From Candidatus Methylomirabilota bacterium (lineage in GTDB: Bacteria > Methylomirabilota > Methylomirabilia > Rokubacteriales > CSP1-6): a stretch of DNA of 64,000 nt. Both the position numbers and the translations under genes were made by a program. The number at the start of each line of letters is the position of its first letter. The first letter of the stretch is position 1. The stretch spans positions 34,052 through 98,051 of the forward strand of contig JBKPCO010000021.1 in the NCBI GenBank assembly GCA_046727415.1. Reading direction: 5' to 3'. Shown here piece by piece: positions 7,461-64,000 of this stretch. The notes beneath the pieces are model-generated. The model was given only the letters and a program-made list of their open reading frames with translations. It searched no databases and was not told where the DNA came from.

Positions 7461-7497
7461 GGACGGATCCTCCTTGCTCGCGGGCTATGATCGCGGG

Positions 7498-8391: not shown

Positions 8392-8425
8392 TCGATGGCC
8401 GCACTCGCTCGACCGGTGCCTGCCG

Positions 8426-19742: not shown

Positions 19743-19744
19743 GG

Positions 19745-47311: not shown

Positions 47312-48229
47312 TTACTCCTTGATCATCTGCTGCCGGCGCCGGAGATAGGCGTTCCGGACAGCGCTGTAGAGATCGACCACGCTTTCCTCGAAGCCCTGGA
47401 ACAGCTCGAGGTTCAGGGCTCGATCGTTGACGATCTCCACGGCCTTCATGGTGATCGAGATCCAGAAGGCCGGACCGACCCAGGTGAGCGGATTCATGGC
47501 CGCATCGACGCCCCGGCCGATGCCGTCGCGGATCGTCATCGGCTCCAACAGAGGCAAGATGAGGTAGGGGCCGGCGGGAACGCCCCATACACCAAGTGTC
47601 TGCCCGAAGTCCTCACGGCTCTTCTCGATCCCCCAGTACTTCGCCGCGTCGAAGAGCCCGCCGATGCCCAGCGTGCTGTTGATCAGGAACCGTCCCAGCT
47701 CGCGTGCGGTGCCGCCCCACTTTCCCTGGAGCAAGCTGTTGGCGGCGCGCGGCACGAAGGCGATGTTGTCGAAGCCATTGGCGATCAGGATCTCGAACGG
47801 CTCGGGCACAATCACCCGGTAAATCTTCGCCACCGGTTTCAGGACGAACCGATCGAGCTGTCGGTTCACCTCGAACATCGCCTCGTTGAACTTCTCGAAG
47901 GGGTCGTATTCCTCGTCGCTCTCGGGCTCAGGCTTCTCGGCCGGCGCCGCTTCGGGCTTTTCGGCCGGCGCGCGCTCGGCCTGAGCGATCGTCGGCAAGG
48001 CCGGCGCGCCGTCGTCGCTCGCGTCCACCCCGAACGAGAGGACCGCGTCGGTGGGGTCGAGCTCGGCGTCAGTAGCGAGACGGCAGGCGGACTCGGATTC
48101 CGCGCCGGACGGCGCATCGATTGAGGGGGGCCGCGACGACTCGGCCAGCAGCGCCGAGTCCGTCCTGACCACACCCGAGAGGCTGCCGCATCCGCCGAGC
48201 ACCGCCGCGGCGATCAGGACGCGGAGAAC
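47312..48229 (-). CDS. mlaA: MlaA/VacJ-family outer-membrane lipoprotein. The start codon is uncertain.
   Basis: A lipobox (AAAVLGGCGS) and MlaA blocks (PFEKFNEAMFEVN, NSTLGIGGLFD) are present. A GGAGGG Shine-Dalgarno precedes VLRVLIAAAVLGGC, but the codon there is GTT. The nearest canonical in-frame start (GTG at 48349) adds 40 non-signal residues through AT-rich, promoter-like DNA. Confidence 0.6.
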   Translation of the reverse strand, partial: VLRVLIAAAVLGGCGSLSGVVRTDSALLAESSRPPSIDAPSGAESESACRLATDAELDPTDAVLSFGVDASDDGAPALPTIAQAERAPAEKPEAAPAEKPEPESDEEYDPFEKFNEAMFEVNRQLDRFVLKPVAKIYRVIVPEPFEILIANGFDNIAFVPRAANSLLQGKWGGTARELGRFLINSTLGIGGLFDAAKYWGIEKSREDFGQTLGVWGVPAGPYLILPLLEPMTIRDGIGRGVDAAMNPLTWVGPAFWISITMKAVEIVNDRALNLELFQGFEESVVDLYSAVRNAYLRRRQQMIKE

Positions 48230-48477
48230 GGAGAGCCCTCCCTTCGAATGACCTGCATGGATAGGTGAGGCGAGATATCGGCTATCGCGTGCTATCGATA
48301 GAGCGACTATATCTTGGAACCGGAACGTGCCAGACAGAATTCGCGTCACGGTCGGGCAGCCATCGAATTTTCGCGGTTCGTATTGTAACGACGCGGCTCC
48401 TGGCGTATGTTAGTCAAGCGCGATTCATTCGAGCATCGTCCCGATCCACACCGCGACCGTCCGAGCGAGGAGATGAC

Positions 48478-52342: not shown

Positions 52343-53858
52343 CACCTCGCGCCGCCAGCGGTAGCCGTAGCGTGAAGCGGCTGCCCGCCCCCAGCGCGCT
52401 CTCCACGGTGACGTCGCCTCCGTGCGCTTCGGTGATGTGGCGGACGAGCGCGAGGCCGACGCCGCTGCCGCGGCGTCCCTGTGTATCGCTCCGGCCCACG
52501 CGGTAGAACTTCTCGAAGATCTTCGCGTGCTCGTGGGGCGGGATCCCCATGCCCCGGTCCGCCACGGTGATGGCAAGACGCCCGTCCACGACCCGCGCGC
52601 TCACTGCCAGCGCCCTCTCGTCGCCCGAATACTTGATCGCGTTGTCGACGAGGTTCGCCAGCGCCTGCCCGATGGCATCCGCGTCCACCGGGATGTCCGG
52701 CAGGTCGGGCGCCACGTCCACGTCGACCTTGAAGCCGTGCTGCGCGAGCGGATAGTCGAACGCCTCGAGCACCGACCGGATCAGCGGCTCGATCGCCGTC
52801 GGCGCCATCCGATAAATCTGCCGGCCGCCCTCGATGCGCGAGAAGTCCAGCACGTTGTCGATCAAGCGCGACAGCCGCTCGCTCTCGCGCGCGATGACCC
52901 GGTAGTACTGGCGACGCCCGCCTTCGTCGGTGATCCGGCCCATGTCGAGGGTCTCGCCGAACATCCGGATCACGGAGAGCGGGGTCTTGAGATCGTGGGA
53001 CACGTTGGCGACGAAGTCCGACTTGAGCCGCGCCATCTCGGTCTCCCGGCGCGCCAGCCTCCAAGTCGCGACGATCCCCGCGATGATGACCAGCAGCAAC
53101 ACCCCGTAGGCGCCGGTGAACAGCATGACCTGACGGCGGACCGCGCGCCGCGGCGCCGCGTCCGCCGTCTGGTAGACCGCCAGCCGCCAGTCGGGCAGCG
53201 TGTCACGGAACGTCACCGACAAGATTGGCTGGGTGTCACCGACCGGCGCGCGACTGTAGACCGCGCGCCCCTCGTGATCGAGCACGGCGAAGATAGTCGG
53301 CGACTCGAGCGTGCCCAGCGCGGTCTCGAAGATCTCGCGACGCAGCGCTTCGGGGTCGCGAATGAACGCCGCGAGCACCGGCTCGCCGCCGCGTCCGGCC
53401 AGAAGCGCGACACAGACCCGGTGGCCCGCGACCACCTGGCGCTTGCCGCCTCGCTCGAGCTTGCCCTGAGTCGCCTCGGCGACGAGCGGCCCGATGACGG
53501 CGGCGTCGCCCTCCTGCCACGCCTTGGGATAGAGGAGCGCGCCGCGCCGGGTTACCAGATAGAGCCGGCGGACCAGCGGCGAACGGGCAACGATCTCGTC
53601 CACCGCCCGCGCCGACCAGCTGTCAGCCTCGAGCGCGCCCTGAAGCCGGTCCAGGAAGGTGTCTTCCTCGCGGCGGAGCATCATCTCGACCTTCGCGGCG
53701 GCCATGGACGCCATGTCGCGCGCCTGCTCGCGGTACAGGAGCTCGGAGGACACCTCCCACTGGTGGATCGAGATGTAGCCGAGGATCGCGACGATGGTCG
53801 CCGGAACGGCGATCGCCAGGAGCGCGAGCAGCGAGAACCGTGCGGATGGCGACCGCAC
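52335..53858 (-). CDS. Sensor histidine kinase (two TM segments, periplasmic domain, HisKA, HATPase).
   Basis: HisKA (VSHDLKTPL) and HATPase (DNAIKYS...DRGMGIP...GSGVGLAL) are present. It overlaps the response-regulator gene by 8 nt. Confidence 0.85.
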   Translation of the reverse strand: MRSPSARFSLLALLAIAVPATIVAILGYISIHQWEVSSELLYREQARDMASMAAAKVEMMLRREEDTFLDRLQGALEADSWSARAVDEIVARSPLVRRLYLVTRRGALLYPKAWQEGDAAVIGPLVAEATQGKLERGGKRQVVAGHRVCVALLAGRGGEPVLAAFIRDPEALRREIFETALGTLESPTIFAVLDHEGRAVYSRAPVGDTQPILSVTFRDTLPDWRLAVYQTADAAPRRAVRRQVMLFTGAYGVLLLVIIAGIVATWRLARRETEMARLKSDFVANVSHDLKTPLSVIRMFGETLDMGRITDEGGRRQYYRVIARESERLSRLIDNVLDFSRIEGGRQIYRMAPTAIEPLIRSVLEAFDYPLAQHGFKVDVDVAPDLPDIPVDADAIGQALANLVDNAIKYSGDERALAVSARVVDGRLAITVADRGMGIPPHEHAKIFEKFYRVGRSDTQGRRGSGVGLALVRHITEAHGGDVTVESALGAGSRFTLRLPLAARGDG

Positions 53859-53865
53859 CCCGGCG

Positions 53866-54402
53866 TTACCCCCGCTCGGCGAGGAGCCGCTTGATCATCG
53901 CCTCGGTGGCTTCGTAGTCGCCCTCGCCGATGTGTCGGTAGCGGACGATGCCGTTTCGATCCACCAGGAGCGTGGTCGGCCAGGCGATGACACCCCACCG
54001 TTTCCAGATCGTGAACTCGTTGTCCTGGACGACCGGGTAGTGGACGCCGAGCTTCTTCGTGGCGTCGATAACCTTGTCGTACGGCTTCTCCCACGCGAAC
54101 TCCGGACTGTGGACGCCGACGACGGTGAAGCCGTCCTTCTCGTAGCGCTCGTGCCAGTCCCGCACCTGCGGGATCACATTGCGGCAGTTGATTCAGCCGA
54201 ACGTCCAGAATTCGATGAGCACGACGCGGCCCCGCAGGCCCTGCATGGTCAAGGGACCGCTGTTGATCCAGCGGTCCCCCGACACCTCGGGCGCGGGGGC
54301 GCCAATGCGCAGGGCCTGGCCCGCCGCGGGCCCATTCATCAGGCCCACCGCCAGAAAAGCGGCCAGAACGAGCCCATGGCTCCGTCGCATGTCGTTCTTC
54401 AT
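53866..54402 (-). CDS. Candidate selenocysteine-containing periplasmic thiol:disulfide oxidoreductase (TlpA/redoxin fold) with a UxxC active site. The in-frame TGA is at 54193..54195.
   Basis: ORFs 54193..54402 and 53866..54177 are in the same frame and separated only by a TGA. The joined sequence reads ...VVLIEFWTFG-U-INCRNVIPQ..., which is the thioredoxin-fold WxxCxxC position. The N-terminus is a signal peptide (MKNDMRRSHGLVLAAFLAVGL). A SECIS-like structure lies at 54152..54186 (outer stem UGCC/GGCA, inner CCCGC-AGGU-GCGGG), about 20-35 nt 3' of the UGA. Confidence 0.55.
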
Positions 54403-54518
54403 CTTATCCTCGTCCTCACAGCGAACGTCGACCTGCTATGCGCCAGTGTGGAGGACGGGCGCGCAGCGTTCGTCACAACGGTGTCAAATCTTTCGAGGCG
54501 GCGGCCGGCCGGCGAGCC

Positions 54519-54815
54519 CTACGGTCGGTTGAACGCGCGCGAGATGATTTCGGGGAAGCTCGCCTCGATCTCCGCCGCGACCGCGTCGGCGACCTCGGTC
54601 GCGCTCCCGGGCCGCTCCCGCACGTCGCCGCGGACCCACAGCTCGAGATACGCGTCCTGGTCCTCGAGGCCGAGCCTCATCGCGACGGAATCGATGAGCT
54701 GCTGGAACCGGTCGCTCAGCGGCCGGGTGACGGTGCCTGCGTCGTCGCGCGCTTCGATCATCGACGGGACGTCCTTCCAGGCGATGATCTGGTACGTGGC
54801 CAAGGAGACCGGCAC
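54519..54815 (-). CDS. Hypothetical conserved small protein (98 aa).
   Basis: Non-junk composition (LATYQIIAWKDVPSMIE...). I cannot assign a family. Confidence 0.4.
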   Translation of the reverse strand: MPVSLATYQIIAWKDVPSMIEARDDAGTVTRPLSDRFQQLIDSVAMRLGLEDQDAYLELWVRGDVRERPGSATEVADAVAAEIEASFPEIISRAFNRP

Positions 54816-54846
54816 TCGAAGTCGGTTGACGGCGGGCCGGCTCGCG

Positions 54847-55167
54847 TCAGCTCCCGCCCATGAACTGGGCGAGCAGCGTGATCTGGTCTCCCGGCTGCAG
54901 CGGCGAGTCGAGGGTATGGTCGATGCCGAGCACCGCGTTGTTGACGAGGACCTCGATGTGCTCGCCCAGCTCGTTCCCGTGCCAGAGGGCCCGGTGAAGC
55001 TCGGGGTAGCGCGCCGAGAGCCCGGCGAGCACGCTCCTGACCGTCGCGCCGGGTGTCAGGGCCTCGTCCAGGACGCGCCGCCCCGAGCCGTCGCCGCCCA
55101 CGAACTTCGTGATCCAGGAGGCGACCTCCACGGGAATCGTCGCGGTGGTAGCGCGGGCAGCACTCAT
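54847..55167 (-). CDS. MoaD/ThiS-like ubiquitin-fold sulfur-carrier protein.
   Basis: 106 aa with a beta-grasp-like pattern and a C-terminal ...LLAQFMGGS (a Gly-Gly near the C-terminus). Confidence 0.5.
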   Translation of the reverse strand: MSAARATTATIPVEVASWITKFVGGDGSGRRVLDEALTPGATVRSVLAGLSARYPELHRALWHGNELGEHIEVLVNNAVLGIDHTLDSPLQPGDQITLLAQFMGGS

Positions 55168-55222
55168 CTAAGCCAAAATCTATCAGACGATGCGGAGCCT
55201 CGCCAGCGGCACGAGGCGGTGA

Positions 55223-55840
55223 CTACCCGGCCAAGCGGCGAGCGCGTGCCTGATCGTTGAGAAACTCGTCGCGCTTCTGCTTGAGGCGCCGCACTAGCTC
55301 TTCGTACGAGCTCGAGCGGACGATGCGATCGAACTGCGAGCGATAGTTGGCGACGAGGCTCACGTTCTCGATGAGCACGTCGTAGATCAGCCAGCGCTCA
55401 CCCCGGCGGACCATCCGCGACTCGACGGGCACCTCGATGCCCGCGCGGGTCACGATGCGGGCCCGGACCGTGGCCAGCTCACCGTCGATCGACTCGCCGA
55501 CGTACCGGATCCGCTCACCGCCGTACTCGTCCAGCCGCGCGATGTAGGTTCGCTCGAGGAGGTCAGCGAAGAGCTGCGTGAACTCGTCGCGCTCGGCCGG
55601 GGTGCGCGCCTGCCAGTGGCGGGCGAGCACGCGCCGGGCCGTCTCGGTGACGTCGAACGCCTCGTGCGCGATCTTGCGGACCGCCGCGCGGCGGTCTCCG
55701 CGCGCGAGGGCGGGATCGTCCAGGACCTTGATGACTTGATCGGTGTACTCGCGCAGCTGATCGGTGGGGCCGGCCGCCGCCGGCGCGCCGGCGAGCAGCG
55801 AGAGCGACGCAGCCGCCGCGAGCGCGACGATTCCCCCCAT
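55223..55840 (-). CDS. mlaC: MlaC/Ttg2D-family periplasmic phospholipid-binding protein.
   Basis: Signal peptide (MGGIVALAAAASLSLLAGAPAAAG) and MlaC-like blocks (FDVTETARRVLARHW, RYVGESIDGELATVRARIV). The start is the ATG at 55840. Confidence 0.7.
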   Translation of the reverse strand: MGGIVALAAAASLSLLAGAPAAAGPTDQLREYTDQVIKVLDDPALARGDRRAAVRKIAHEAFDVTETARRVLARHWQARTPAERDEFTQLFADLLERTYIARLDEYGGERIRYVGESIDGELATVRARIVTRAGIEVPVESRMVRRGERWLIYDVLIENVSLVANYRSQFDRIVRSSSYEELVRRLKQKRDEFLNDQARARRLAG

Positions 55841-55848
55841 GGTCGTGC

Positions 55849-57047
55849 TTATCGTAACAGAGCGGGCGCCGGGACGTGCATTCGGAGCTCGCGGCCGACG
55901 ATCCACGCGCCGAAGAAGGTGAGGATAGACGCGACGAGATAGACGGAGTGGACCCCGAAGGCATGGATGAGCAATCCGCCCACGAGTGGGCCCGCGATCC
56001 CGCGCACGCCGGCCAAGGTCGCGCCGATCGCGACGTATTGCGCGGTCCGGTGCGGCCCGGCGACGTCGATGATCGCCATCATCCAGACGAGCTCGAGCCG
56101 ACGGACAGAAGCGAGTCGGTGACCGAGCTCGCGACCAGGACCCACGGGCTCCAGGCGACGTAGTAGATCAGCGGCGTGGCCGCGCCGATCAGGTACATCA
56201 CTCGCAGCGCCTCGAGGCTCGACCGGCGATCGACGAGCCATCCCCAGTACGCGCTGCCGGCGAGCGTCGCCGCGGCGGCGACGGCCGCGAACACCCCAAC
56301 CTGCGATGCGCTCACGTGCAGGACGTCGACGAGCAGGAGCGGGTGCGCGGGCGTCTGGATCCAGCAGCCGAAACCGAAGAGGAACGACGCGACGAGGAGC
56401 CGCCGAAACGCGTGGTCACTCCGGACCGCCAGCCAGGCGTCGGCGAGTCTACCCGGCTCCTCGCCGGCTGATTCGAGCTCGGGGACGGCGAGCCGTCTCT
56501 GACGCAGGCTCGCGGCCATCCCGAGGAGTGCCGCGGCCACGAAGATCCACCGGTACGCGACGCGCTCGAAGAGCTGGCCGGCGGCGAGGGCGAGCCCGAT
56601 CCCGAGCATGGCGCCGGCCATCCGGACCATGCCGAGCGCCCGGCCGCGCTGCGCGCGCGGATAGACGCGCTCGACGACCGCGGCCTGCGCCGGCGCGGCG
56701 GCGGCGCCGAAGAAATCCCGCGCCACCACGATGCCGACGAACGACCACGCCGAGCTGACGAACGGGACGAGCAGGAACACGCCGCGCGCGGCGAACCCGG
56801 GCCACACCAGGTATGGCAGCGGAGGCCGGCCGTGGAACGCGCGTGCCCAGAGGAGCGAGAGCAGAAGGCATGCGCCACCGGCCGAGGACATGACCGCAAG
56901 CTGCAACGGAGTGGCGCCGAGCTCGCGCCGGAGGATCAGGCCGATGAACGGGCTGGTCAGCCCGGCGAACACGGTGAAGAGGAGCGTCGCCGAAATGTCG
57001 ACCCGGAGTGCCTGCCGTATCTCCGGGCTGAATCGCGAGCCGATCAT
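55849..57047 (-). pseudogene. MFS transporter gene split by a frameshift (pseudogene or sequencing indel).
   Basis: ORF 56079..57047 encodes about ten TM helices of an MFS fold and ends abruptly (...SVGSSSSG*). ORF 55849..56241, in another frame, continues with the last two TM helices (LELVWMMAIIDVAGP...LVASILTFFGAWIVG). The overlap at 56079..56241 implies a single-base indel near 56100-56130. Confidence 0.5.
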
Positions 57048-57149
57048 CGTTTGATTATGTCGCGTCTCCGCCCCGCGACGAACGCTTCCCGGCGGTACGG
57101 TCTAACCCTGCGCCACCACGTTGATCTAGGGTCGGCTACAATCGCCTCC

Positions 57150-58025
57150 ATGACGCCCCTGATGGCCTCCGACCCCCACCCCAGGAAGCGCGTTGCAGCG
57201 CTCGACACCGAGCTCGCATACGTCGAGTCCGGCGCGGGCGAGCCGATCGTCTTCTTGCACGGCAATCCCACGTCCTCCTACCTCTGGCGAAATGTCATCC
57301 CGCACGTCGAGCGGCTCGGCCGGTGTCTCGCCCCGGACCTAGTGGGCATGGGCGATTCAGGGAGGTCGCCGGGCGGATCTTACCGCTTCGTCGACCATGC
57401 TCGATACCTTGACGCCTGGTTCGAGGCGCTGGCGCTGTGGAATGTGACGCTCGTCGTTCACGACTGGGGCTCGGCGCTCGGCTTTCACTGGGCCCGCCGC
57501 CACCCCGAGCGCGTCCGAAGCGTGGCCTACATGGAATCGATCGTTCGACCCGTGACGTGGCAGGAGTGGCCCGAGGTGGCGCGCAAGGTCTTCCAGGGGA
57601 TGCGTGGTCCGGGCGGCGAAGAGATGGTTCTCCAGAAAAACGTGTTCGTGGAGCGCATCCTGCCGGCCAGCGTCATTCGCGGCCTGACGGCGGAGGAGAT
57701 GGCTCGTTACCGCGCCCCCTATCGCGAGCCCGGCGAGTCACGGCGGCCGACACTCACCTGGCCGCGCGAGATCCCGGTGGACGGTGAGCCGGCCGACGTC
57801 GTCCGGATCGTCGAGGCCTACGGCGAGTGGCTGGCGAAGAGCCCGTTGCCCAAGCTGTTCGTCAACGCCGATCCGGGCTCGATTCTGGTCGGCGCGCAGC
57901 GCGAGCTCTGCCGACGCTGGCCCAACCAGCAGGAGGTCACGGTCCGGGGCACGCACTTCGTGCAGGAGGATTCGCCGGACGAGATCGGGCGGGCTCTGGC
58001 GGCGTTCGTGCGGCGGCTGGGATAG
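57150..58025 (+). CDS. Haloalkane dehalogenase (alpha/beta-hydrolase fold).
   Basis: IVFLHGNPTSSYLWRNVIPHV is the haloalkane-dehalogenase signature. The nucleophile elbow is VVHDWGSALG, and the C-terminal block is GTHFVQEDSPDEIG. 291 aa. Confidence 0.9.
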   Translation: MTPLMASDPHPRKRVAALDTELAYVESGAGEPIVFLHGNPTSSYLWRNVIPHVERLGRCLAPDLVGMGDSGRSPGGSYRFVDHARYLDAWFEALALWNVTLVVHDWGSALGFHWARRHPERVRSVAYMESIVRPVTWQEWPEVARKVFQGMRGPGGEEMVLQKNVFVERILPASVIRGLTAEEMARYRAPYREPGESRRPTLTWPREIPVDGEPADVVRIVEAYGEWLAKSPLPKLFVNADPGSILVGAQRELCRRWPNQQEVTVRGTHFVQEDSPDEIGRALAAFVRRLG

Positions 58026-58080
58026 CCCCGCGCGCTCGGGCCGCCGAGCGCGCGGGGAGAGGCGAATCCGCGAGAAGCTT

Positions 58081-58755
58081 CTAGTCCTCGGCGTTGACCA
58101 TCATCTTGACGGTCACGCGGCGCTTGTCCTTGTTGGGCGTGCCCTTCTCGGCAATCGGGCCCAGGCCGATCAGGTGGATCCGGGGCAGCTCAACGCCCCT
58201 CTCGACCAGGTAGCGGCGAACCGACTCGACCCGGCGCTGGCTCAGGCCCACGTTGTAGCCGTAGGTCCCCACGGGGTCGGCATAGCCCTGGAGGTCGACC
58301 GTCAGCTTGGGATTCTCCTTCATCTCCTTCACCAGCGTGGACAGGGTGGTCTGCCCCTCGTCGCCGATGTCCCACTTATCGAAGCCGAACAGGATCTGGT
58401 AGGTCTCGGCTTCCTTGCGGTTGTTCCGGTTGGACCAGAGCCGCGTCAGCCGGCTGTTCGTCTCGTCCGCCTTGGTGTACGCGCTATCCGCACGCTCCCT
58501 GGCGCCCTTGGCGGTCGCGGTCGTCTCGGTCAGCGTCCCTTCAGCGGTCTTCAGCCGGCCGTCGACCCCGTCAACTTTCTGGTCAACCCGCTGACTTTCC
58601 GCGGCGGCCTTCTGGTCGACCGCGGCGACCTTCTGATCCATCGCGACTTCTGTCTTTCCGACGTGATCCCTCACCCAATCCCGGGTGGCGACGCAACCGC
58701 TGGCCAGCAGCATCACCGCCGGTAGGACCAACCCCAACTTCAGCGCCTGTCGCAT
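58081..58755 (-). CDS. OmpA-family lipoprotein with an N-terminal coiled-coil-like segment.
   Basis: Lipobox (LLASGC) and a C-terminal OmpA-like domain (ILFGFDKWDI...LQGYADPVGTYGYNVGLSQRR). The start is the ATG at 58755. Confidence 0.8.
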   Translation of the reverse strand: MRQALKLGLVLPAVMLLASGCVATRDWVRDHVGKTEVAMDQKVAAVDQKAAAESQRVDQKVDGVDGRLKTAEGTLTETTATAKGARERADSAYTKADETNSRLTRLWSNRNNRKEAETYQILFGFDKWDIGDEGQTTLSTLVKEMKENPKLTVDLQGYADPVGTYGYNVGLSQRRVESVRRYLVERGVELPRIHLIGLGPIAEKGTPNKDKRRVTVKMMVNAED

Positions 58756-58924
58756 AACGGCCTCCTCTTGTGCCCACACCTGTAGCGGTCGGGCTCGAGC
58801 GGGAGGCCATGCAACCCGGTCGCCAGCCGCGGCACAGCGTTTTTGGCGGGAAATTGGCCTGTTTGCGCGCCCGGGGTGTTCCTTTCGCGACAGGTGCAGT
58901 CAGCCGGCTGACGGCAACGTCAGC

Positions 58925-59410
58925 TTAGTTCAGTCGAGCGCGCAAGGAATGTAGAGCACGCCGGAGGTCGGCGTCTCCGGGGGCCAGACGCACGGCCTGC
59001 TCGAATTCCCGCAGTGCGTCCCACCACCGCCCCTGCTTCATGCGGATCCGGGCGAGGTTCATATGTGGAAACTGGCGCGGCTCGTATCGCTTCGCCTGCT
59101 TCGCGCGCTCGAGCCAGGGGATTGCCTCGTCGAGCTTTCCCTGCTGCATCAGATAGCAGCCGATGTCGTTGTAGGGGTTGCCGAAGTCGGGATCGACCTC
59201 GATAGCGCGCAGACACTCCTGGGTCGCCTCCTCCAGACGCCCCTGGAAGCTGTAAGTCCATCCCAGGAAGGTATGAGCCTCGGCAGTCGGGTGCACCTCG
59301 ATCGAGCGCTGGTAGAGCTCGATCGCGCGGTCGAGCTCCCCCCGCATTTGATGCTGGTAAGCCTCCTTCCAGATCTCGGTGGCCCGATCGAAGCCCTCGG
59401 CGGAGCTCAT
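58925..59410 (-). CDS. TPR-repeat protein.
   Basis: 161 aa with three or four TPR-like repeats (AIELYQRSIEVHP, AHTFLGWTY, AIEVDPDFGNPYNDIGCYL). Confidence 0.7.
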   Translation of the reverse strand: MSSAEGFDRATEIWKEAYQHQMRGELDRAIELYQRSIEVHPTAEAHTFLGWTYSFQGRLEEATQECLRAIEVDPDFGNPYNDIGCYLMQQGKLDEAIPWLERAKQAKRYEPRQFPHMNLARIRMKQGRWWDALREFEQAVRLAPGDADLRRALHSLRARLN

Positions 59411-59414
59411 ACCG

Positions 59415-60080
59415 TCACGAGATCGGCCAGGCCTCGCGCCGCAGGCCCATGTCCCAGAACATCCACTCGTAACGGCTGGTTACCAGGAAGTGGCCGCGCA
59501 TCGCGTCGCGCTCGAACGGCGTCAGCCGCTCGGCCACCTGGTCGGTCGCGGCCAGCACGGCCCGAACGACGGCGCCGAACTCCTCGGAGGCGTAGGTACC
59601 GATCCAGCGTTTGTACAGGGGATCGGCGGAGCCGGCGCGTTCGAGCTCTTTCCCGACCTCCCAGTAGATCCAGTAGCAGGGCAGGAGTGCGGCCATCGCC
59701 TCGTGAAACGGGGCGCCGTACGCGACCGCCAGGAGGTAGCTTGTGTAGGCAAGGTTCGTCGGCGCCAAGGGGGTCGCGGCGACGTCGGCGGGCGTCAGCC
59801 CGAAGTCGCGAAAGAATCCTTCGTGGAGCGCGCGCTCCACTTTGAGGGCGCCGGCAGCGTGCTCGTTGAACATGATGATCCAGTCATCCTCGGGCGCCCG
59901 CGCGCCGGCGAGCGACAGCGCCCGGGCGAACTCGCGCAGGTAGAGCGCGTCCTGGACCGCGTAGAACTTGAAGCTCTCGCGTGGGAGCGAGCCGTCGGTG
60001 AGCCCGCGAAGGAACGGATGCCGCAGGATCGCAGCGTAGATCGGCTCGATCGACTGCCACAGCTCGCCCGTGAACGCCAT
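59415..60080 (-). CDS. TenA/THI-4-family thiaminase II / aminopyrimidine aminohydrolase-like protein.
   Basis: FLRGLTDGSLPRESFKFYAVQDALYLREFARAL and the CYWIYWEVG block. The start is the ATG at 60080, overlapping the upstream stop. Confidence 0.8.
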   Translation of the reverse strand: MAFTGELWQSIEPIYAAILRHPFLRGLTDGSLPRESFKFYAVQDALYLREFARALSLAGARAPEDDWIIMFNEHAAGALKVERALHEGFFRDFGLTPADVAATPLAPTNLAYTSYLLAVAYGAPFHEAMAALLPCYWIYWEVGKELERAGSADPLYKRWIGTYASEEFGAVVRAVLAATDQVAERLTPFERDAMRGHFLVTSRYEWMFWDMGLRREAWPIS

Positions 60081-60874
60081 CAGCGCCCCTTGAAGACTGG
60101 CTCGCGCTTGTCGACGAAGGCCCGGGCGGCCTCCCGATGGTCCTCGGTCATCCCGCACCGGGTATGGTGCCACGCTTCGAGATCGAGCGAATCCTTGAGG
60201 GTACCGCTCTCGGCGGCGTTGAAATTCCGCTTCATGTACTGGTACGCGATGCGCGGCCCGCGGCCGAGGCGCGCGGCCAGCGCCATCGTCTCTTCCTCGA
60301 GCCGCCCGTCGGGCACCACCCGGTTGACGATGCCGAGCGCCAGCGCCGTCTGGGCATCGACGATGTCGGCGGTGTAGTAGAGCTCCCGCGCCTTGGCGCT
60401 ACCCACGAGCTGCGTCAGGTACCAGCTTCCGCCGAAGTCCCCGGAGTAACCGACACGCGCGAACGCGGTCGCGAATCGGGCGGTGTCGCTCGCGACGCGC
60501 AGATCGCACGCCAGCGCCAGCGAGAGCCCGGCGCCGGCCGCCGCGCCGCGCACCATCGCGATCGTCACCTTCGGCATCTCGTGGAGCCAGCGCGAGACCT
60601 CCATGCGCGAGCGAAGCGCCTGCGCCTTTTCCTCGAGGGTCGTGCCACCGAACTCGCGTCCCTCCGCCATGGCCTTCACGTCGCCGCCGGCGCAGAAGCC
60701 GCGGCCCGCGCCAGTGAGCACCACGACGCCGACGGTCGGATCTTCGCCGAGCCGGGGCAGCGCCTCGAGCAGCGTGTCCAGCATCGGACCCGACATGGCG
60801 TTCAGCCGATCGGGCCGGTTCAGCGTGAGCACGGCGACTCCGTCCTTGACGGTTTCCAGCACATCCTCGGCCAT
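60080..60874 (-). CDS. Enoyl-CoA hydratase/isomerase (crotonase fold).
   Basis: VAVLTLNRPDRLNAM and the oxyanion-hole region VVLTGAGRGFCAGGDVK. 265 aa, starting at the ATG at 60874. Confidence 0.85.
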   Translation of the reverse strand: MAEDVLETVKDGVAVLTLNRPDRLNAMSGPMLDTLLEALPRLGEDPTVGVVVLTGAGRGFCAGGDVKAMAEGREFGGTTLEEKAQALRSRMEVSRWLHEMPKVTIAMVRGAAAGAGLSLALACDLRVASDTARFATAFARVGYSGDFGGSWYLTQLVGSAKARELYYTADIVDAQTALALGIVNRVVPDGRLEEETMALAARLGRGPRIAYQYMKRNFNAAESGTLKDSLDLEAWHHTRCGMTEDHREAARAFVDKREPVFKGR

Positions 60875-61101
60875 GGCGATCCTCCCGGAATGACAGTGTC
60901 GCGATGGTACTCCGAGCGCACTGAAGATCAAGTACTTGCGTCGCGGTTCGTGCACTGAGATGCACTGAGCGGAACCCGCGACGCTCCCTGGCGCTCCAGC
61001 CTTATAGACGTTCATCTTTAGGGCGATCACACCGACGAACATCAGCGTGATCTTTTTTCAGGTCGCCCTCCGAAAGCACTGAGCGTTCGTTGTTATCCTA
61101 G

Positions 61102-61323
61102 GTCCCACCCCACCGCCATCTTCTTGCCGACGAGATCGTGTTCATTCACAAGGGAAGCGCCGTTGTCAGACTTGGTGAACGCGAGTTGGTGGTCCATGAG
61201 GGAGGGACCGTCTTCATCCCTTGGAACGTGCGCATCACGCTCACGCTCGATACGTATGGCCGTCATATCCAGCGCACCGGCCATGATCACGTGGTCGCGG
61301 CGCTGGACAAGCTGGTGCGATAG
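61102..61323 (+). pseudogene. Truncated cupin-domain remnant.
   Basis: Cupin motif 1 (PPHRHLLADEIVFIHKG) and motif-2-like GGTVFIPWNV are present, but the in-frame run begins right after a TAG with no room for the N-terminal strands. The only start is the GTG at 61138. Confidence 0.3.
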
Positions 61324-61640
61324 TGCTGCAGATCGAACTCGACAGGCCCGACGAGCCGCACTGGCTCTCGAAGCCGAGGCGCGTTGCTCCGGCTGGTCAT
61401 CGGCCGGGCTCGCGTGCACTCGCAGCCGACCCCGCCGTCTTTTCGCCCCCAGGCGTGGAAGGATTCGGGGCAGGCTGAAGACTTCCCGCCTCGGGCAAGG
61501 TAGAGGTAGCACCCCGCGTTACGAAATTCATCTGCGCGCCTCCTGCGAATTTCGTCAACATCACTCCTGCTCCAAGAACGATTCGTCTGTCATGCGCTCG
61601 AGAAGTCACGCTGGCCTCGCTCGGCCTCAAGGGCCAGGCG

Positions 61641-61784
61641 ATGTTCAAGACCTTCTCATTCTTCAAGGCCCCCACGGACAACCGCAACTTCCACAAGGAG
61701 GGCATCCTCCTGGTCGAGTGGAGCCGTCGGCTCGCGCCGTGGAGCGACGTGAAGCTCATGTTGGAGGCGCGCGACCAGCCTTGA
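61641..61784 (+). CDS. Possible small protein (47 aa) upstream of the sterol genes.
   Basis: ATG MFKTFSFFKAPTDNRNFHKEGILLVEWSRRLAPWSDVKLMLEARDQP. Codon usage is GC3-rich and gene-like, but it is short and I see no homology. Confidence 0.2.
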   Translation: MFKTFSFFKAPTDNRNFHKEGILLVEWSRRLAPWSDVKLMLEARDQP

Positions 61785-61817
61785 CCGGGTTCCGGCCGGA
61801 CGGTAGAACGGGAGCCA

Positions 61818-62393
61818 GTGCGGTGGCGCCCCAGAGTGGCTCCGCTGTTCCAGCCGGACATTCTCCATGCAATCGCCCGGGGCGCTGTCGGCTTGCCTCA
61901 CGGCGAGATGGTGCGGCGCGTCACCGACGAGCTCGCCCGGCTCTACCCGGGCCACATCGAGACCCGTCCGAACTGGATGATGAGCCTTGCCGGTGGCGTG
62001 ACGGGCATCATGACCGTGCTTCACGGCTCGCTCTCCGAGTATGTGCTGATCTTCGGCACGCCAGTGGGCAGCGAAGGGTTCTCCGGTCGTTACAGGATCG
62101 AGATCCACGACTTCATGCTGGCCGGCGAGATGTGGACGTACACTGAGGCGGACTTCGCTGAGCGCCGCGCCTTCCGTCCCGGCGACGCGGCTGTCCTGCG
62201 GCGCGGCGAGGCCAAGGGTGTCAGGCTCAGCGAGGACACTTGGATGCTCGAATATGGCCGCGGCGCGATTCCGTCGGCGCTGCTGTTCGCGCTTGGCGAC
62301 GCGGTGATCGCCTTCGAGCTCCGGACCATCGCCCGGACGATCTGGACGTATGGCCGGCTGACGGTTCGGGAACTCCGCCGGGGCAAGATCTGA
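61818..62393 (+). CDS. ERG2/sigma-1-receptor-family protein (sterol C-8 isomerase-like).
   Basis: Collinear with sigma-1 receptor/ERG2: HGSLSEYVLIFGTPVGSEGFSGRY, EIHDFMLAGEMW and TWMLEYGRGAIPSALLFALGDAV. There is no N-terminal TM helix. The start is probably the GTG at 61818. Confidence 0.8.
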   Translation: MRWRPRVAPLFQPDILHAIARGAVGLPHGEMVRRVTDELARLYPGHIETRPNWMMSLAGGVTGIMTVLHGSLSEYVLIFGTPVGSEGFSGRYRIEIHDFMLAGEMWTYTEADFAERRAFRPGDAAVLRRGEAKGVRLSEDTWMLEYGRGAIPSALLFALGDAVIAFELRTIARTIWTYGRLTVRELRRGKI

Positions 62394-63619
62394 TGGCAAG
62401 CCGGCGGACGCTGGGTCCTCTCGTACTGATGGGGTGCCTGCCGCCGCTCACGTACTACTTCTATCTCTGCCTACGCGACTTTGGTGGTGCGCTCGCACTG
62501 CCCCGATCGGCGGCCGACCTGCACGACCTCACCGCCCGTGTGCCAGCACCGACGCTGCAGGCGCTGGCCCTCTACGGCGGCTGGGTCGTCCTCCAGGTCC
62601 TCTTGCAGGTGTGGGCGCCCGGACAGGTCCGGCAGGGCATGCCCCTCGACGACGGCTCGCGCTTCGCCTATCGGCTCAACGGGTGGTTCTCGTTCTGGGT
62701 CACCCTCGCCTTCGTGGCCGCCGCCGTCGCCGCCGGGGTGCTGTCACCCACCGCGGCCTACGACGAGTTCGGGCCGCTCCTCACCACTGTGAACCTGGTC
62801 GCGTTCGCCCTGGCCGCCGCGCTGTACGTGCAAGGCCGCCGCGCCGGCTCGACGACCGGTGATCCGATTCGCGACTACTTCATGGGGACGACGCTGAACC
62901 CTCGCGTGGGCGGGTTCGATGTAAAGTTCTTCTGCGAGAGCCGGCCCGGCCTCATCCTCTGGGTCGTGTTCAACCTGTCGTTCGCCACCGCGCAGCACCA
63001 GCGACACGGCACGGTGACGCTCGCGATGCTGCTGGTCAACGCGTTCCAGTTCCTTTACGTCGCCGATTACTTCTTCCATGAGGAAGCGATCCTCACGACC
63101 TGGGACATCAAGTATGAGCGCTTCGGCTGGATGCTCGCCTGGGGCGATCTCGTATGGGTGCCGTTCACCTACACCCTCCAGGCCTACTACCTTGTGGATC
63201 ACGCGCCCGCGCTGTCCCCGGCGGCCACCGCCGGCATCGTGGCCCTCAATCTGGCGGGCTACGTCCTCTTCCGCGCGTCCAACATCCAGAAGCATCGATT
63301 CCGCCGTGACCCCGAGGCACCGTTGTGGGGGCGGGCTCCGGAGTATATCCGCACCACCGCCGGCTCGCTGCTCCTGACCTCCGGTTGGTGGGGCATCGCC
63401 CGCCACGTGAACTATCTCGGCGACCTGGTGATGGCGCTCGCGTGGTGCCTGCCGACCGGTTTCCGTCATCCGCTGCCCTACTTCTATGTCGTCTACATGA
63501 CGGTCCTGCTCCTTCATCGCGAGCGGCGCGACAATGCAGTCTGCCGCGAGAAGTACGGTGCGGACTGGAACGCGTATTGCCGGAAGGTCCCCTGGCGGAT
63601 CCTTCCCGGAGTCTATTGA
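62393..63619 (+). CDS. ERG4/ERG24-family sterol reductase (delta-14/delta-7/delta-24-reductase family).
   Basis: Multi-TM protein with the sterol-reductase C-terminal signature LLTSGWWGIARHVNYLGDLVMALAWCLPTGF...PYFYVVYMTVLLLHRERRDNAVCREKYGADWNAYCRKVPWRILPGVY. The ATG overlaps the upstream stop (ATGA). Confidence 0.85.
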   Translation: MASRRTLGPLVLMGCLPPLTYYFYLCLRDFGGALALPRSAADLHDLTARVPAPTLQALALYGGWVVLQVLLQVWAPGQVRQGMPLDDGSRFAYRLNGWFSFWVTLAFVAAAVAAGVLSPTAAYDEFGPLLTTVNLVAFALAAALYVQGRRAGSTTGDPIRDYFMGTTLNPRVGGFDVKFFCESRPGLILWVVFNLSFATAQHQRHGTVTLAMLLVNAFQFLYVADYFFHEEAILTTWDIKYERFGWMLAWGDLVWVPFTYTLQAYYLVDHAPALSPAATAGIVALNLAGYVLFRASNIQKHRFRRDPEAPLWGRAPEYIRTTAGSLLLTSGWWGIARHVNYLGDLVMALAWCLPTGFRHPLPYFYVVYMTVLLLHRERRDNAVCREKYGADWNAYCRKVPWRILPGVY

Positions 63620-63620
63620 C

Positions 63621-64000
63621 GTGGGGGACCCGCAGGCGTTCGACGTCATCATCGCCGGTGGCGGCATGGCCGGAGGCTCGGTGGCCGCCGCGCTGGACCG
63701 CCTCGGCCTCCGCACGCTCGTCGTCGAGCCCGGGCTCGACAGCAGCAAGCGCTTGGCCGGCGAGCTGATCCACCCGCCGGGCGCGGCCAACCTGGCCGAG
63801 CTCGGCCTCCTGGGCTCCCTGGAAGCGGCTGGCGGCGCGCCGGTGCTCGGCTTTGCCGTCGTCGGCGACGGGCAGTCCCATCGCTTGCCCTACGCATCCC
63901 TAGGCACGTTGCGCCTAACCGGATTCGCGATGGAGCACGCCGCCATCGCGTCGACCCTTCGCGCCGCCGTTGCTCGCCTCCCTCACGTCGCGGTGTGGGA
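63621..64000 (+). CDS. Squalene-monooxygenase-like FAD-dependent oxidase (5' part; it runs off the window).
   Basis: The GTG is 1 nt after the reductase stop. FDVIIAGGGMAGGSVAAALDRLGLRTLVVE is a dinucleotide-binding motif, followed by RLAGELIHPPGAANLAELGL, which closely mirrors the squalene epoxidase RIVGELLQPGG...LGL block. Confidence 0.6.
   Translation, partial: MGDPQAFDVIIAGGGMAGGSVAAALDRLGLRTLVVEPGLDSSKRLAGELIHPPGAANLAELGLLGSLEAAGGAPVLGFAVVGDGQSHRLPYASLGTLRLTGFAMEHAAIASTLRAAVARLPHVAVW

What the first reader, a model, noticed from the sequence alone, without database searches (positions are those of the whole stretch)
61818..64000. Eukaryote-like sterol-modification gene cluster: ERG2/sigma-1-like isomerase, ERG4/ERG24-family reductase, squalene-epoxidase-like oxidase
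Three consecutive, translationally coupled genes (ATGA overlap, then 1-nt spacing) encode homologs of sterol C-8 isomerase/sigma-1 receptor, a sterol double-bond reductase with the full C-terminal sterol-reductase signature, and an FAD monooxygenase whose N-terminus mirrors squalene epoxidase. Sterol biosynthesis or modification operons are rare in bacteria, and an ERG2/sigma-1-type protein is particularly unusual there. The window ends inside the third gene, so a cyclase or further tailoring genes may follow. A conserved inverted repeat and a small ORF sit upstream.
Basis: partly seen in the sequence, partly recalled or inferred. Interest (0 to 1): 0.75.

Follow-up and report, generated by a model that had tools for sequence, protein, structure and literature searches.

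The report
Bacterial sterol synthesis gene cluster (Rokuibacteriota)
The end of the window holds the first three genes of an eight-gene cluster that should let an uncultured soil or groundwater bacterium (Candidatus Rokuibacteriota) make sterols from squalene; the reading is correct, but clusters like this, including in this phylum, have already been described from genomes.

Summary
Window 61818-62393 encodes an ERG2/sigma-1-receptor-family protein (Pfam E 1e-45; model TM 0.88 to human sigma-1 receptor). Window 62393-63619 encodes an ERG4/ERG24 reductase, 58% identical to the crystallised Methylomicrobium delta-14 sterol reductase MaSR1. Window 63621-end is the N-terminus of a flavoprotein.

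A 99.96%-identical public contig (L001) extends the window by 8.1 kb. It shows that gene 3 is a squalene epoxidase. The genes that follow are a geranylgeranyl-reductase-family protein (Bsr-like C-24 reductase), a lanosterol-type oxidosqualene cyclase, SdmA, CYP51 and SdmB.

The organism is Candidatus Rokuibacteriota (Methylomirabilota).

The novelty claim is overstated:
- Sterol genes next to osc in Ca. Rokubacteria, including ERG2 and ERG4/24, were reported in 2020.
- I found ERG2-like genes in 58 bacterial species of at least nine phyla, with the C-14 reductase directly downstream in 36 of them.

The upstream inverted repeat is weak and not conserved. The small upstream ORF is a deletion scar left by the loss of a transporter module that related genomes still carry. 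No enzyme here has been tested biochemically, and the sterol product is inferred. Interest is modest.

The parts
61818..62393 (+). ERG2/sigma-1-receptor-family protein, the putative sterol C-8 (delta8 to delta7) isomerase. 191 aa; the alternative GTG start at 61836 gives 185 aa.
   Evidence: - PF04622, E 9.6e-46.
- Human sigma-1 receptor 5HK1, E 1.5e-35 over residues 7-181.
- AF2 model pLDDT 84.8; TM 0.88, rmsd 1.5 A and 42% identity to 5HK1/6DJZ.
- D98 and E145 align with S1R D126 and E172. The Glu is kept in 57/57 and the Asp in 53/57 bacterial homologues.
- No N-terminal TM helix.
62393..63619 (+). ERG4/ERG24-family sterol reductase, assigned as a C-14 (delta14) sterol reductase. 408 aa; its start overlaps the gene 1 stop by 1 nt.
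   Evidence: - PF01222, E 1.8e-124.
- Best solved structure is 4QUV MaSR1 (delta14-sterol reductase), E 7e-154, 57.9% identity over 399 aa.
- N340 and R376 match the MaSR1 NADPH-pocket residues N359 and R395.
- It lies directly downstream of the ERG2-like gene in 36 of 58 species.
63621..64000 (+). N-terminal 126 codons of squalene monooxygenase (SQMO). The full gene is 444 aa on contig L001 10326-11660. GTG start lies 1 nt after the gene 2 stop.
   Evidence: - In the window only generic FAD-binding matches appear.
- Full length on L001: PF08491 SE, E 1.1e-23, 84 bits against a cutoff of 20.
- The best solved structure is human squalene monooxygenase 6C6N at 1.5e-27; the next hit is at 3e-12.
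61641..61784 (+). 47-aa ORF. It is a deletion scar, not a working part of the pathway. It fuses the 5' end of a 440-aa unknown gene to the last codons of an RND/sterol-sensing-domain transporter gene; both sit upstream of ERG2 in related Rokuibacteriota.
   Evidence: - GC3 0.92.
- 48% aa identity (E 1e-11) to residues 36-81 of L008:5027-6349.
- The DNA from about 61764 onward matches the 3' end of the transporter gene of L007.
- The transporter is absent from the window.

Best explanation
The finding is the 5' end of an eight-gene chromosomal cluster for de novo sterol biosynthesis in a Candidatus Rokuibacteriota (Methylomirabilota) bacterium.

Organisation (shown). There are two convergent operons.
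- Operon 1 starts in the window: ERG2-like, C-14 reductase, squalene epoxidase, GGR-family (Bsr-like) reductase. Its stops and starts overlap by 1 nt, are separated by 1 nt, then overlap by 4 nt, so the genes are probably co-translated.
- Operon 2 lies beyond the window: SdmB-like, CYP51, SdmA-like, oxidosqualene cyclase.

Pathway (inferred from homology and from the known chemistry of these families):
1. SQMO epoxidises squalene.
2. The cyclase, which has Val at the human-453 position, makes lanosterol.
3. CYP51 removes the 14-alpha-methyl group, leaving a delta8,14-diene.
4. The ERG24-type reductase uses NADPH to saturate delta14.
5. SdmA/SdmB remove one or both C-4 methyl groups.
6. The ERG2-like cupin protein moves delta8 to delta7 by protonation and deprotonation, using the conserved Asp/Glu pair.
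7. The Bsr-like flavoprotein saturates delta24.

Predicted end product (inferred): a delta7, C-24-saturated sterol of the lathosterol or 4-methyl-lathosterol (lophenol) type, unless further enzymes are encoded elsewhere.

Shown: gene identities, order, synteny, and conservation of cofactor and active-site residues. Inferred: every enzymatic activity, the order of steps, and the product.
For: - Family assignments.
- Solved-structure relatives: MaSR1 7e-154; S1R 1.5e-35; human OSC 6.6e-124 with the VSDCTAE motif and V at position 453; M. capsulatus CYP51 5.9e-115; human SQLE 1.5e-27.
- OSC passes TIGR03463 (864.8 against 851). SdmA (1.6e-114) and SdmB (1.2e-95) are the best NCBIfam hits. The GGR family cutoff is passed (159.9 against 158.8).
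- The GGR-like protein has the GYGWMFP and CGSG motifs that Lee & Welander 2025 describe for Bsr.
- The extension is legitimate. L001 is 99.96% identical over 10.7 kb, and five further independent assemblies carry the same genes.
- The whole eight-gene order is kept in two other Rokuibacteriota species, at 91-95% and 70-81% aa identity (L007, L008).
- The ERG2-then-C14R pair is adjacent in 36/58 species.
- Host DNA is ordinary chromosome with the same G+C content: DnaE, MetH, G6PD and others.
- Literature: osc neighbourhoods with ERG4/24, ERG2, ERG11, Rieske and Rossmann genes in Ca. Rokubacteria (PMC7306690); Bsr (PMC12004948); a C-14 reductase plus C-8 isomerase in Methylotuvimicrobium (PMC13277303).
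Against: - No enzyme of this cluster, and to my knowledge no bacterial ERG2 homologue, has been assayed.
- Rokuibacteriota are uncultured and no sterol has been shown from them.
- SdmA and SdmB score below the NCBIfam equivalog cutoffs (382 and 321 against 600).
- The Bsr assignment rests on family membership, motifs, context, and 36% identity to a cyanobacterial gene listed as a Bsr homologue. It does not rest on a phylogeny.
- Wei et al. 2016 list only a delta8 sterol for M. alcaliphilum, an organism that carries the reductase. Where the ERG2-C14R pair exists, delta7 products have not been documented.
- No squalene synthase is present in the window or in the extension.
- The reductase was not placed in a tree with DHCR7, ERG4 and TM7SF2 references.
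Confidence: 0.85

Rival explanations
1. The ERG2-like protein is not a delta8-delta7 isomerase. Instead it is a dedicated partner of the C-14 reductase: a sterol-binding or substrate-delivery subunit, or an isomerase with another regiochemistry such as delta8 to delta8(14). The rest of the cluster is still sterol synthesis.
For: - The ERG2-like gene sits immediately upstream of the reductase in 36/58 species, including genomes where osc is not nearby, such as Methylotuvimicrobium.
- It lacks the N-terminal membrane anchor of eukaryotic family members.
- Its animal relative, the sigma-1 receptor, is a ligand-binding protein and not known as an enzyme. Sterol-like ligands are seen in its structures (one search lists progesterone and DHEA-S complexes).
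- The sterol tabulated for M. alcaliphilum is delta8.
Against: - The Asp/Glu pair is conserved.
- ERG2-like also occurs without an adjacent reductase in cholesterol-producing Minicystis rosea and in the cyanobacterial clusters, where a C-8 isomerisation step is needed.
- The specialist literature annotates it as a C-8 isomerase.
- The 8(14) bond in methanotrophs is now explained by an unrelated NTF2-family enzyme.
Confidence: 0.1
2. The genes act on sterols taken up from eukaryotes (remodelling or degradation) rather than on sterols made de novo.
For: - Some bacterial homologues of sterol enzymes occur in sterol degraders.
- No squalene synthase lies in the cluster.
- In a third Rokuibacteriota species (L009) the ERG2-C14R pair sits without SQMO or OSC within 10 kb.
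Against: - Squalene epoxidase and an oxidosqualene cyclase that passes the curated osq_cycl cutoff are in the same cluster, one translationally coupled and the other convergent.
- These two enzymes have no role other than making the sterol skeleton.
- No steroid-degradation genes (kshA/kstD type) were seen in the neighbourhood.
Confidence: 0.04
3. The stretch is eukaryotic DNA mis-binned or mis-assembled into a bacterial contig.
For: ERG2, ERG24, squalene epoxidase, OSC and CYP51 are classically eukaryotic families.
Against: - G+C is 66-68%, as in the flanking housekeeping genes.
- There are no introns. Genes overlap or sit 1 nt apart, with GTG starts.
- The bacteria-only genes SdmA/SdmB and a GGR-type reductase are interleaved.
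- The same junction with bacterial flanks was recovered in six independent assemblies.
- The cluster is syntenic in two other Rokuibacteriota species.
Confidence: 0.01

Closest known systems
osc-centred sterol gene neighbourhoods of Ca. Rokubacteria (Santana-Molina et al. 2020, Mol Biol Evol, PMC7306690)
   Same: Same phylum and same Pfam content next to osc: SQMO, ERG4/ERG24, ERG2, ERG11/CYP51, a Rieske protein and an NAD(P)-Rossmann protein. The window is very probably an instance of what that paper drew.
   Different: That work is a phylogenomic survey. It gives no per-gene analysis, does not identify the GGR-type gene as a C-24 reductase (Bsr was defined only in 2025), and has no biochemistry. 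This particular strain has lost the upstream RND transporter module.
Methylotuvimicrobium (Methylomicrobium) alcaliphilum/buryatense delta14-sterol reductase MaSR1 (PDB 4QUV) with its neighbouring C-8 isomerase gene
   Same: - The reductase is 57.9% identical, and the NADPH-pocket residues Asn and Arg are conserved.
- The ERG2-like gene lies directly upstream in M. buryatense 5G and relatives (L022, L028).
- The pair is noted in PMC13277303.
   Different: - In the methanotrophs the pair lies away from osc (different locus tags).
- It coexists there with the NTF2-type 8,14-Bsr route and a ferredoxin-fused CYP51.
- Here the pair is embedded in the full cluster and the CYP51 (455 aa) has no ferredoxin fusion.
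Cyanobacterial sterol clusters (Calothrix sp. NIES-4105; Nostoc sp. NIES-4103; Amazonocrinis), Lee et al. 2023 and Lee & Welander 2025
   Same: One cluster holds SQMO, OSC, a P450, SdmA/SdmB, an ERG2-like C-8 isomerase homologue and a GGR-type Bsr homologue (L054, L055).
   Different: - No ERG24-type reductase lies within those loci.
- Identities to the window proteins are low: ERG2 38-39%, OSC 41%, Bsr-like 36%.
- The gene order differs.
Myxococcota cholesterol pathways (Enhygromyxa salina, Sandaracinus amylolyticus, Minicystis rosea)
   Same: They use eukaryote-like SQMO, OSC, CYP51 and C-14 reductase together with bacterial SdmAB and, in some, Bsr. ERG2-like genes are present in many Myxococcota.
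   Different: - Myxobacteria also have ERG25-27, and the further desaturase and reductase steps that lead to cholesterol.
- None of these is in this cluster, so a simpler delta7 end product is predicted.
- Myxobacterial sterols have been measured; Rokuibacteriota sterols have not.
Eukaryotic ERG2 (fungal C-8 sterol isomerase) and the sigma-1 receptor
   Same: Same Pfam family and same cupin-barrel-plus-two-helix fold (TM 0.88). The Asp/Glu pair is the same.
   Different: The bacterial protein is shorter and lacks the N-terminal transmembrane helix. It is encoded in an operon with the C-14 reductase. Its activity is untested.

Membership tests
ERG2 / sigma-1 receptor family (PF04622) | Profile match above the curated Pfam threshold over the whole domain | tested here: met
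   156.2 bits against a cutoff of 21, E 9.6e-46; profile positions 23-210 of 210.
ERG2 / sigma-1 receptor family (PF04622) | Cupin-like beta-barrel closed by two C-terminal helices, as in sigma-1 receptor crystal structures | tested here: met
   AF2 model pLDDT 84.8, pTM 0.84. Foldseek top 42 hits are all sigma-1 receptors, with TM 0.88 and rmsd 1.5 A; the next fold scores TM 0.43.
ERG2 / sigma-1 receptor family (PF04622) | Conserved acidic pair in the pocket (human S1R Asp126 and Glu172; their role is from my own knowledge of S1R mutagenesis) | tested here: met
   D98 and E145 align with them. They are invariant in alignment A1. The Glu is kept in 57/57 and the Asp in 53/57 across bacterial loci.
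ERG2 / sigma-1 receptor family (PF04622) | N-terminal transmembrane anchor, as in eukaryotic members | tested here: not met
   The alignment starts at S1R residue 37, with only about 6 residues before it. There is no hydrophobic segment before residue 146. Most bacterial homologues start at the same point.
ERG2 / sigma-1 receptor family (PF04622) | Delta8-to-delta7 sterol isomerase activity | not testable with these tools
   Needs an enzyme assay or complementation of a yeast erg2 mutant.
ERG4/ERG24 sterol reductases, C-14 reductase (ERG24/TM7SF2/MaSR1) group | Profile match above the Pfam threshold | tested here: met
   416.3 bits against a cutoff of 27, E 1.8e-124.
ERG4/ERG24 sterol reductases, C-14 reductase (ERG24/TM7SF2/MaSR1) group | Closest characterised relatives are delta14-sterol reductases | tested here: met
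   4QUV MaSR1 at 7e-154, 57.9% identity over 399 aa. The second hit is a eukaryotic delta14-sterol reductase, 9L5R, at 7e-73. No DHCR7 or ERG4 structure was available for contrast.
ERG4/ERG24 sterol reductases, C-14 reductase (ERG24/TM7SF2/MaSR1) group | NADPH-pocket residues (MaSR1 N359 and R395, equivalent to LBR N547 and R583) and the C-terminal LLHRxxRDxxxCxxKYG motif | tested here: met
   N340 and R376 are conserved. The motif is at 373-389; the motif pattern itself is recalled from memory.
ERG4/ERG24 sterol reductases, C-14 reductase (ERG24/TM7SF2/MaSR1) group | Placement inside the ERG24 clade, not the DHCR7 or ERG4 clades, in a rooted phylogeny | not tested
Squalene monooxygenase (SQMO/ERG1) | Squalene-epoxidase domain (PF08491) in addition to the FAD-binding fold | tested here: met
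   - The 126 residues in the window give only generic FAD hits below cutoffs.
- Full length on the 99.96%-identical L001: SE domain 84.1 bits against 20.1.
- Best PDB hit is human SQLE at 1.5e-27.
Bacterial de novo sterol biosynthesis cluster | An oxidosqualene cyclase (not a squalene-hopene cyclase) linked to SQMO | tested here: met
   TIGR03463 osq_cycl scores 864.8 against 851, while hopene_cyclase scores 264 against 431. Human OSC at 6.6e-124 against SHC at 2.5e-50. The cyclase lies 1.1 kb from SQMO.
Bacterial de novo sterol biosynthesis cluster | CYP51 sterol 14-alpha-demethylase | tested here: met
   The top 57 PDB hits are all annotated as CYP51 or sterol 14-alpha-demethylases, apart from one generically named cytochrome P450. 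The best is M. capsulatus 6MCW at 5.9e-115.
Bacterial de novo sterol biosynthesis cluster | Bacterial C-4 demethylation pair SdmA (Rieske) and SdmB (NAD(P) SDR) | tested here: inconclusive
   They are the best NCBIfam hits by far: SdmA 1.6e-114 (382 bits) and SdmB 1.2e-95 (321 bits). Both are below the equivalog cutoffs of 600, which appear to be tuned to methanotrophs.
Bsr (GGR-family bacterial C-24 sterol reductase, Lee & Welander 2025) | GGR family membership with the YxWxFP motif and the active-site Cys | tested here: met
   TIGR02032 scores 159.9 against 158.8. MenJ is the second-best hit, consistent with the reported Bsr/MenJ sister relation. GYGWMFP and DKTCGSG are present.
Bsr (GGR-family bacterial C-24 sterol reductase, Lee & Welander 2025) | Placement in the Bsr clade with the assayed S. 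amylolyticus enzyme | tested here: inconclusive
   The evidence is only indirect: 36% identity to the Amazonocrinis and Nostoc genes listed as Bsr homologues in their Table S2, and 40% to a myxobacterial cluster gene. No tree was built.
Bacterial de novo sterol biosynthesis cluster | Sterols actually produced | not testable with these tools
   The phylum is uncultured and no lipid data exist.

The most novel reading that the evidence does not exclude
An uncultured phylum with no known sterols (Rokuibacteriota) makes a delta7, C-24-saturated sterol of the lathosterol or lophenol type from a compact eight-gene cluster.
- The cluster mixes eukaryote-type enzymes (SQMO, OSC, CYP51, ERG24, ERG2) with bacteria-only ones (SdmAB, Bsr).
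- This would extend Bsr beyond the Myxococcota and cyanobacteria where it was reported.
- The ERG2-then-ERG24 gene pair, adjacent in 36 of 58 species across phyla, would be a functionally coupled module and could supply the first assayable bacterial C-8 isomerase.
- Strain-level loss of the adjacent sterol-sensing-domain RND transporter would point to variable sterol trafficking.
Probability: 0.4. Interest if true: 0.45.

Novelty: new member of a known kind. Interest (0 to 1): 0.3.

Why it matters
Bacterial sterol pathways bear on two debates: where eukaryotic sterol synthesis came from, and how far sedimentary steranes can be read as eukaryote biomarkers.

A widespread soil and groundwater phylum with a complete lanosterol-to-delta7-sterol toolkit adds another potential non-eukaryotic sterol source. 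The cluster is also compact, so it is easy to clone for testing three activities still unproven in bacteria outside a few models:
- an ERG2-type C-8 isomerase
- an SdmAB pair of unknown methyl-removal count
- a Bsr-type C-24 reductase

The existence of such clusters in this phylum was already published from genomes, so the gain is incremental.

Tried and rejected
- I looked for a functional upstream element. The inverted-repeat scan found only a weak 16-nt pair. The promoter and terminator scans found nothing. Rfam found nothing at E<=1.
- I treated the 47-aa ORF as a possible small gene. I rejected this because it is absent from the 93%-related L007 and is explained as a deletion remnant.
- I searched the window for the RND/SSD transporter seen upstream of ERG2 in L007 and L008. 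It is absent.
- I scanned about 40 window ORFs for squalene synthase, HpnCDE or other isoprenoid genes. None was found; they are housekeeping and signalling genes.
- NCBIfam has no model for the ERG2-like protein or the reductase.
- The 440-aa unknown protein upstream in L008 has no Pfam, NCBIfam or PDB relative.
- I tried to read the MaSR1 structure paper (PMC4285568) and the Hoshino & Gaucher supplement. Neither is held.
- I considered that the reductase might make the 8(14) bond of methanotroph sterols. I rejected this because that step is done by an unrelated NTF2-family enzyme, and no such gene is in this cluster.
- I did not build a reductase phylogeny against DHCR7 and ERG4 because reference sequences were lacking.
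Full report
**What is in the window**

The last 2.2 kb of the window carries three same-strand ORFs with strong coding bias (GC3 0.84-0.89).

- **Gene 1 (61818-62393, 191 aa).** It matches Pfam ERG2_Sigma1R at E 9.6e-46 and the human sigma-1 receptor structure 5HK1 at E 1.5e-35.
  - An AlphaFold2 model built on 20 homologues (pLDDT 84.8) superposes on sigma-1 receptor crystal structures with TM 0.88, rmsd 1.5 A and 42% identity. The next-best fold reaches only TM 0.43.
  - The residues aligned with S1R Asp126 and Glu172 are D98 and E145. Both are invariant in my alignment. Across 57 sequences from other genomes the Glu is kept in 57 and the Asp in 53.
  - Unlike the eukaryotic proteins it has no N-terminal transmembrane helix. 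Its only hydrophobic stretch is the C-terminal helix pair.
- **Gene 2 (62393-63619, 408 aa).** It matches ERG4_ERG24 at E 1.8e-124.
  - It is 57.9% identical over 399 residues to MaSR1, the crystallised delta-14 sterol reductase of Methylomicrobium alcaliphilum (4QUV, E 7e-154).
  - It keeps N340 and R376, the equivalents of the MaSR1 NADPH-pocket residues N359 and R395.
  - It keeps the C-terminal LLHRERRDNAVCREKYG string.
- **Gene 3 (63621 to the window end).** It is only 126 codons of an FAD-binding fold. Within the window it cannot be told apart from UbiH-type hydroxylases.

- The first junction is cTGATGg, a 1-nt overlap rather than ATGA.
- The 1-nt spacer before gene 3 is right.

**Extending the window**

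An exact-protein look-up of the reductase found six independent assemblies.

- The longest, L001 (GCA_046723815.1, 18.8 kb), is 99.96% identical to window 53296-64000. It runs 8.1 kb further.
- On L001, gene 3 is a 444-aa protein with the squalene-epoxidase domain (PF08491, 84 bits against a cutoff of 20). Its best solved relative is human squalene monooxygenase, at 1.5e-27 against 3e-12 for the next hit.
- Gene 3 overlaps by 4 nt a 368-aa geranylgeranyl-reductase-family flavoprotein. This protein passes TIGR02032, has MenJ as second-best hit, and carries the GYGWMFP and CGSG motifs.

Four genes converge on this operon from the other strand:
- **Oxidosqualene cyclase.** TIGR03463 scores 864.8 against 851. 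Human OSC is hit at 6.6e-124. The protein has the VSDCTAE motif and Val at the human-453 position, which is the lanosterol-type rule of Wei et al. 2016.
- **An SdmA-like Rieske oxygenase** (NF052579, 1.6e-114).
- **A CYP51.** Its best hit is M. capsulatus 6MCW at 5.9e-115. It has no ferredoxin fusion.
- **An SdmB-like dehydrogenase** (NF052578, 1.2e-95).

With an epoxidase and a cyclase present, this is de novo synthesis rather than mere modification.

**Organism and surroundings**

- Close homologues are named Methylomirabilota or Candidatus Rokuibacteriota.
- In the species-representative genome collection the best match is a Ca. Rokuibacteriota MAG (L007, 93% for ERG2).
- The eight genes are syntenic in L007 (91-95% aa identity) and in a second Rokuibacteriota species, L008 (70-81%).
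- The rest of the window is ordinary chromosome of the same G+C content. It holds an intein-bearing DnaE, MetH, G6PD, kinases, regulators and MlaA/MlaC. I found no squalene synthase or other isoprenoid gene.
- The genes just upstream on the opposite strand (enoyl-CoA hydratase, TenA, TPR, OmpA) look unrelated to sterols.

**How unusual the ERG2-type gene is**

It is not very unusual.

- A pattern scan confirmed by tblastn found it in 58 species representatives. These cover Rokuibacteriota, Myxococcota (including cholesterol-producing Minicystis rosea), Planctomycetota, Acidobacteriota, Methylococcales (including Methylotuvimicrobium buryatense), Nostocales, Hydrogenedentota, Nitrospirales and Actinomycetota.
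- In 36 of these the ERG24-type reductase lies directly downstream on the same strand. In three more it is adjacent in another arrangement.
- So ERG2-then-ERG24 is a conserved two-gene module, here joined to the rest of the pathway. A neighbour-joining tree puts the Rokuibacteriota proteins together, next to Acidobacteriota.

**The upstream features**

- The only inverted repeat in the 940-bp intergenic region is 61268-61307, with 16-nt arms and 81% complementarity.
  - It lies partly inside a 43-nt stretch missing from the near-identical strain L003.
  - No promoter, terminator or Rfam family was detected there.
- The 47-aa ORF (61641-61784) has a strikingly high GC3 of 0.92, and there is a reason for that.
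  - It is 48% identical (E 1e-11) to residues 36-81 of a 440-aa protein encoded in L008.
  - From about 61764 the DNA continues into the last codons of an RND transporter gene, and then the spacer, as found immediately upstream of ERG2 in L007.
  - In L007 and L008 that transporter is an HAE3/MMPL protein with a Patched-type sterol-sensing domain and a C-terminal cyclic-nucleotide-binding domain. It is weakly HpnN- and BstA-like.
  - It is absent from the window.
  - The small ORF is therefore a scar of a roughly 4.6-kb deletion that removed a probable lipid-export module in this lineage. It is not a regulatory peptide.

**Most likely mechanism**

All the enzymology below is inferred from homology.

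1. SQMO and OSC convert squalene to lanosterol.
2. CYP51 removes the 14-alpha-methyl group, giving the delta8,14-diene.
3. The ERG24-type enzyme reduces delta14 with NADPH.
4. SdmA/SdmB remove one or both C-4 methyl groups. The number cannot be predicted, because it differs between methanotrophs, Enhygromyxa and Calothrix.
5. The ERG2-like protein shifts delta8 to delta7.
6. The GGR-type protein saturates delta24, as shown for Sandaracinus Bsr.

No C-5 desaturase, delta7 reductase or methyltransferase is in the cluster. The predicted product is therefore a lathosterol- or lophenol-type sterol, unless other genes lie elsewhere in the genome.

Caveats:
- No bacterial ERG2 homologue has been assayed, as far as I could find.
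- The SdmA and SdmB scores are below the NCBIfam equivalog cutoffs.
- Bsr clade membership is only indirect: 36% identity to the Amazonocrinis gene listed as a Bsr homologue.
- The sterol tabulated for M. alcaliphilum, which carries the reductase, is delta8.
- The reductase was not placed in a tree with DHCR7 and ERG4.
- The 8(14) chemistry of methanotrophs is due to an unrelated NTF2-family enzyme that is absent here.

**Comparison with what is known, and novelty**

- Santana-Molina et al. 2020 reported previously unidentified sterol genes in Ca. Rokubacteria. They noted ERG4/ERG24, ERG2, ERG11, Rieske and Rossmann genes beside osc in that phylum.
- Hoshino & Gaucher 2021 discuss bacterial ERG2 and ERG24 in the origin of eukaryotic sterols.
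- Lee et al. 2023 describe a cyanobacterial cluster with a C-8 isomerisation homologue.
- Lee et al. 2026 note a C-14 reductase plus C-8 isomerase in Methylotuvimicrobium.

The locus is thus a new, uncharacterised member of a known kind of system, in a phylum where its presence is already published.

What this analysis adds beyond those papers:
- A gene-by-gene reading of the Rokuibacteriota cluster.
- A Bsr-like gene outside the Myxococcota and cyanobacteria named in the 2025 paper.
- A count of the ERG2-ERG24 linkage across species.
- The transporter deletion scar.

**Verdict**

The rarity claim and the upstream elements are not supported. Interest is modest (0.3).

Noticed in passing
window 61641-61784 (+); L007:686-3436; L008:5027-6349 and about 7157-9898: The 47-aa ORF upstream of the cluster is a deletion scar. 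Related Rokuibacteriota carry a 440-aa protein of unknown family between this point and ERG2, plus an HAE3/MMPL RND transporter with a Patched-like sterol-sensing domain and a C-terminal cyclic-nucleotide-binding domain. The window strain has lost both.
   Followed up: yes
window 15369-19898 (-): The DNA polymerase III alpha subunit (DnaE) gene is interrupted in frame by an intein with a LAGLIDADG homing-endonuclease domain. Intein_splicing and LAGLIDADG_3 fall between the finger and HHH domains.
   Followed up: no
L009:10001-16000: In a third Rokuibacteriota species the ERG2-C14R pair is followed by a divergent Rieske protein (48% to SdmA, no VanA_C match) and a luciferase-like monooxygenase, not by SQMO, Bsr and OSC. 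This suggests a different or split pathway layout.
   Followed up: partly
window 60875-61640, including ORF 61138-61323 (+): This unusually long intergenic region (about 940 bp) varies by indels among near-identical strains: L003 lacks about 43 nt at 61255-61297 and L005 lacks 61493-61659. The 61-aa ORF here has lower GC3 (0.73) and no family match, so it may be another gene fragment.
   Followed up: partly
L002:10741-11316 (+); L008:19658-20428 (+): A TPR-repeat protein gene follows SdmB at the far end of the cluster in two species. Whether it belongs to the pathway is unknown.
   Followed up: no
window 47312-48349 (-) and 55223-55906 (-): MlaA and MlaC lipid-trafficking genes lie 6-14 kb upstream of the sterol cluster. 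No link to sterols was tested.
   Followed up: no
L010-L058 (table): The ERG2-like and C-14 reductase genes form a conserved adjacent pair in 36 of 58 species across at least five phyla, often with no other sterol gene within 10 kb. Examples are the Methylococcales and many Myxococcota.
   Followed up: yes
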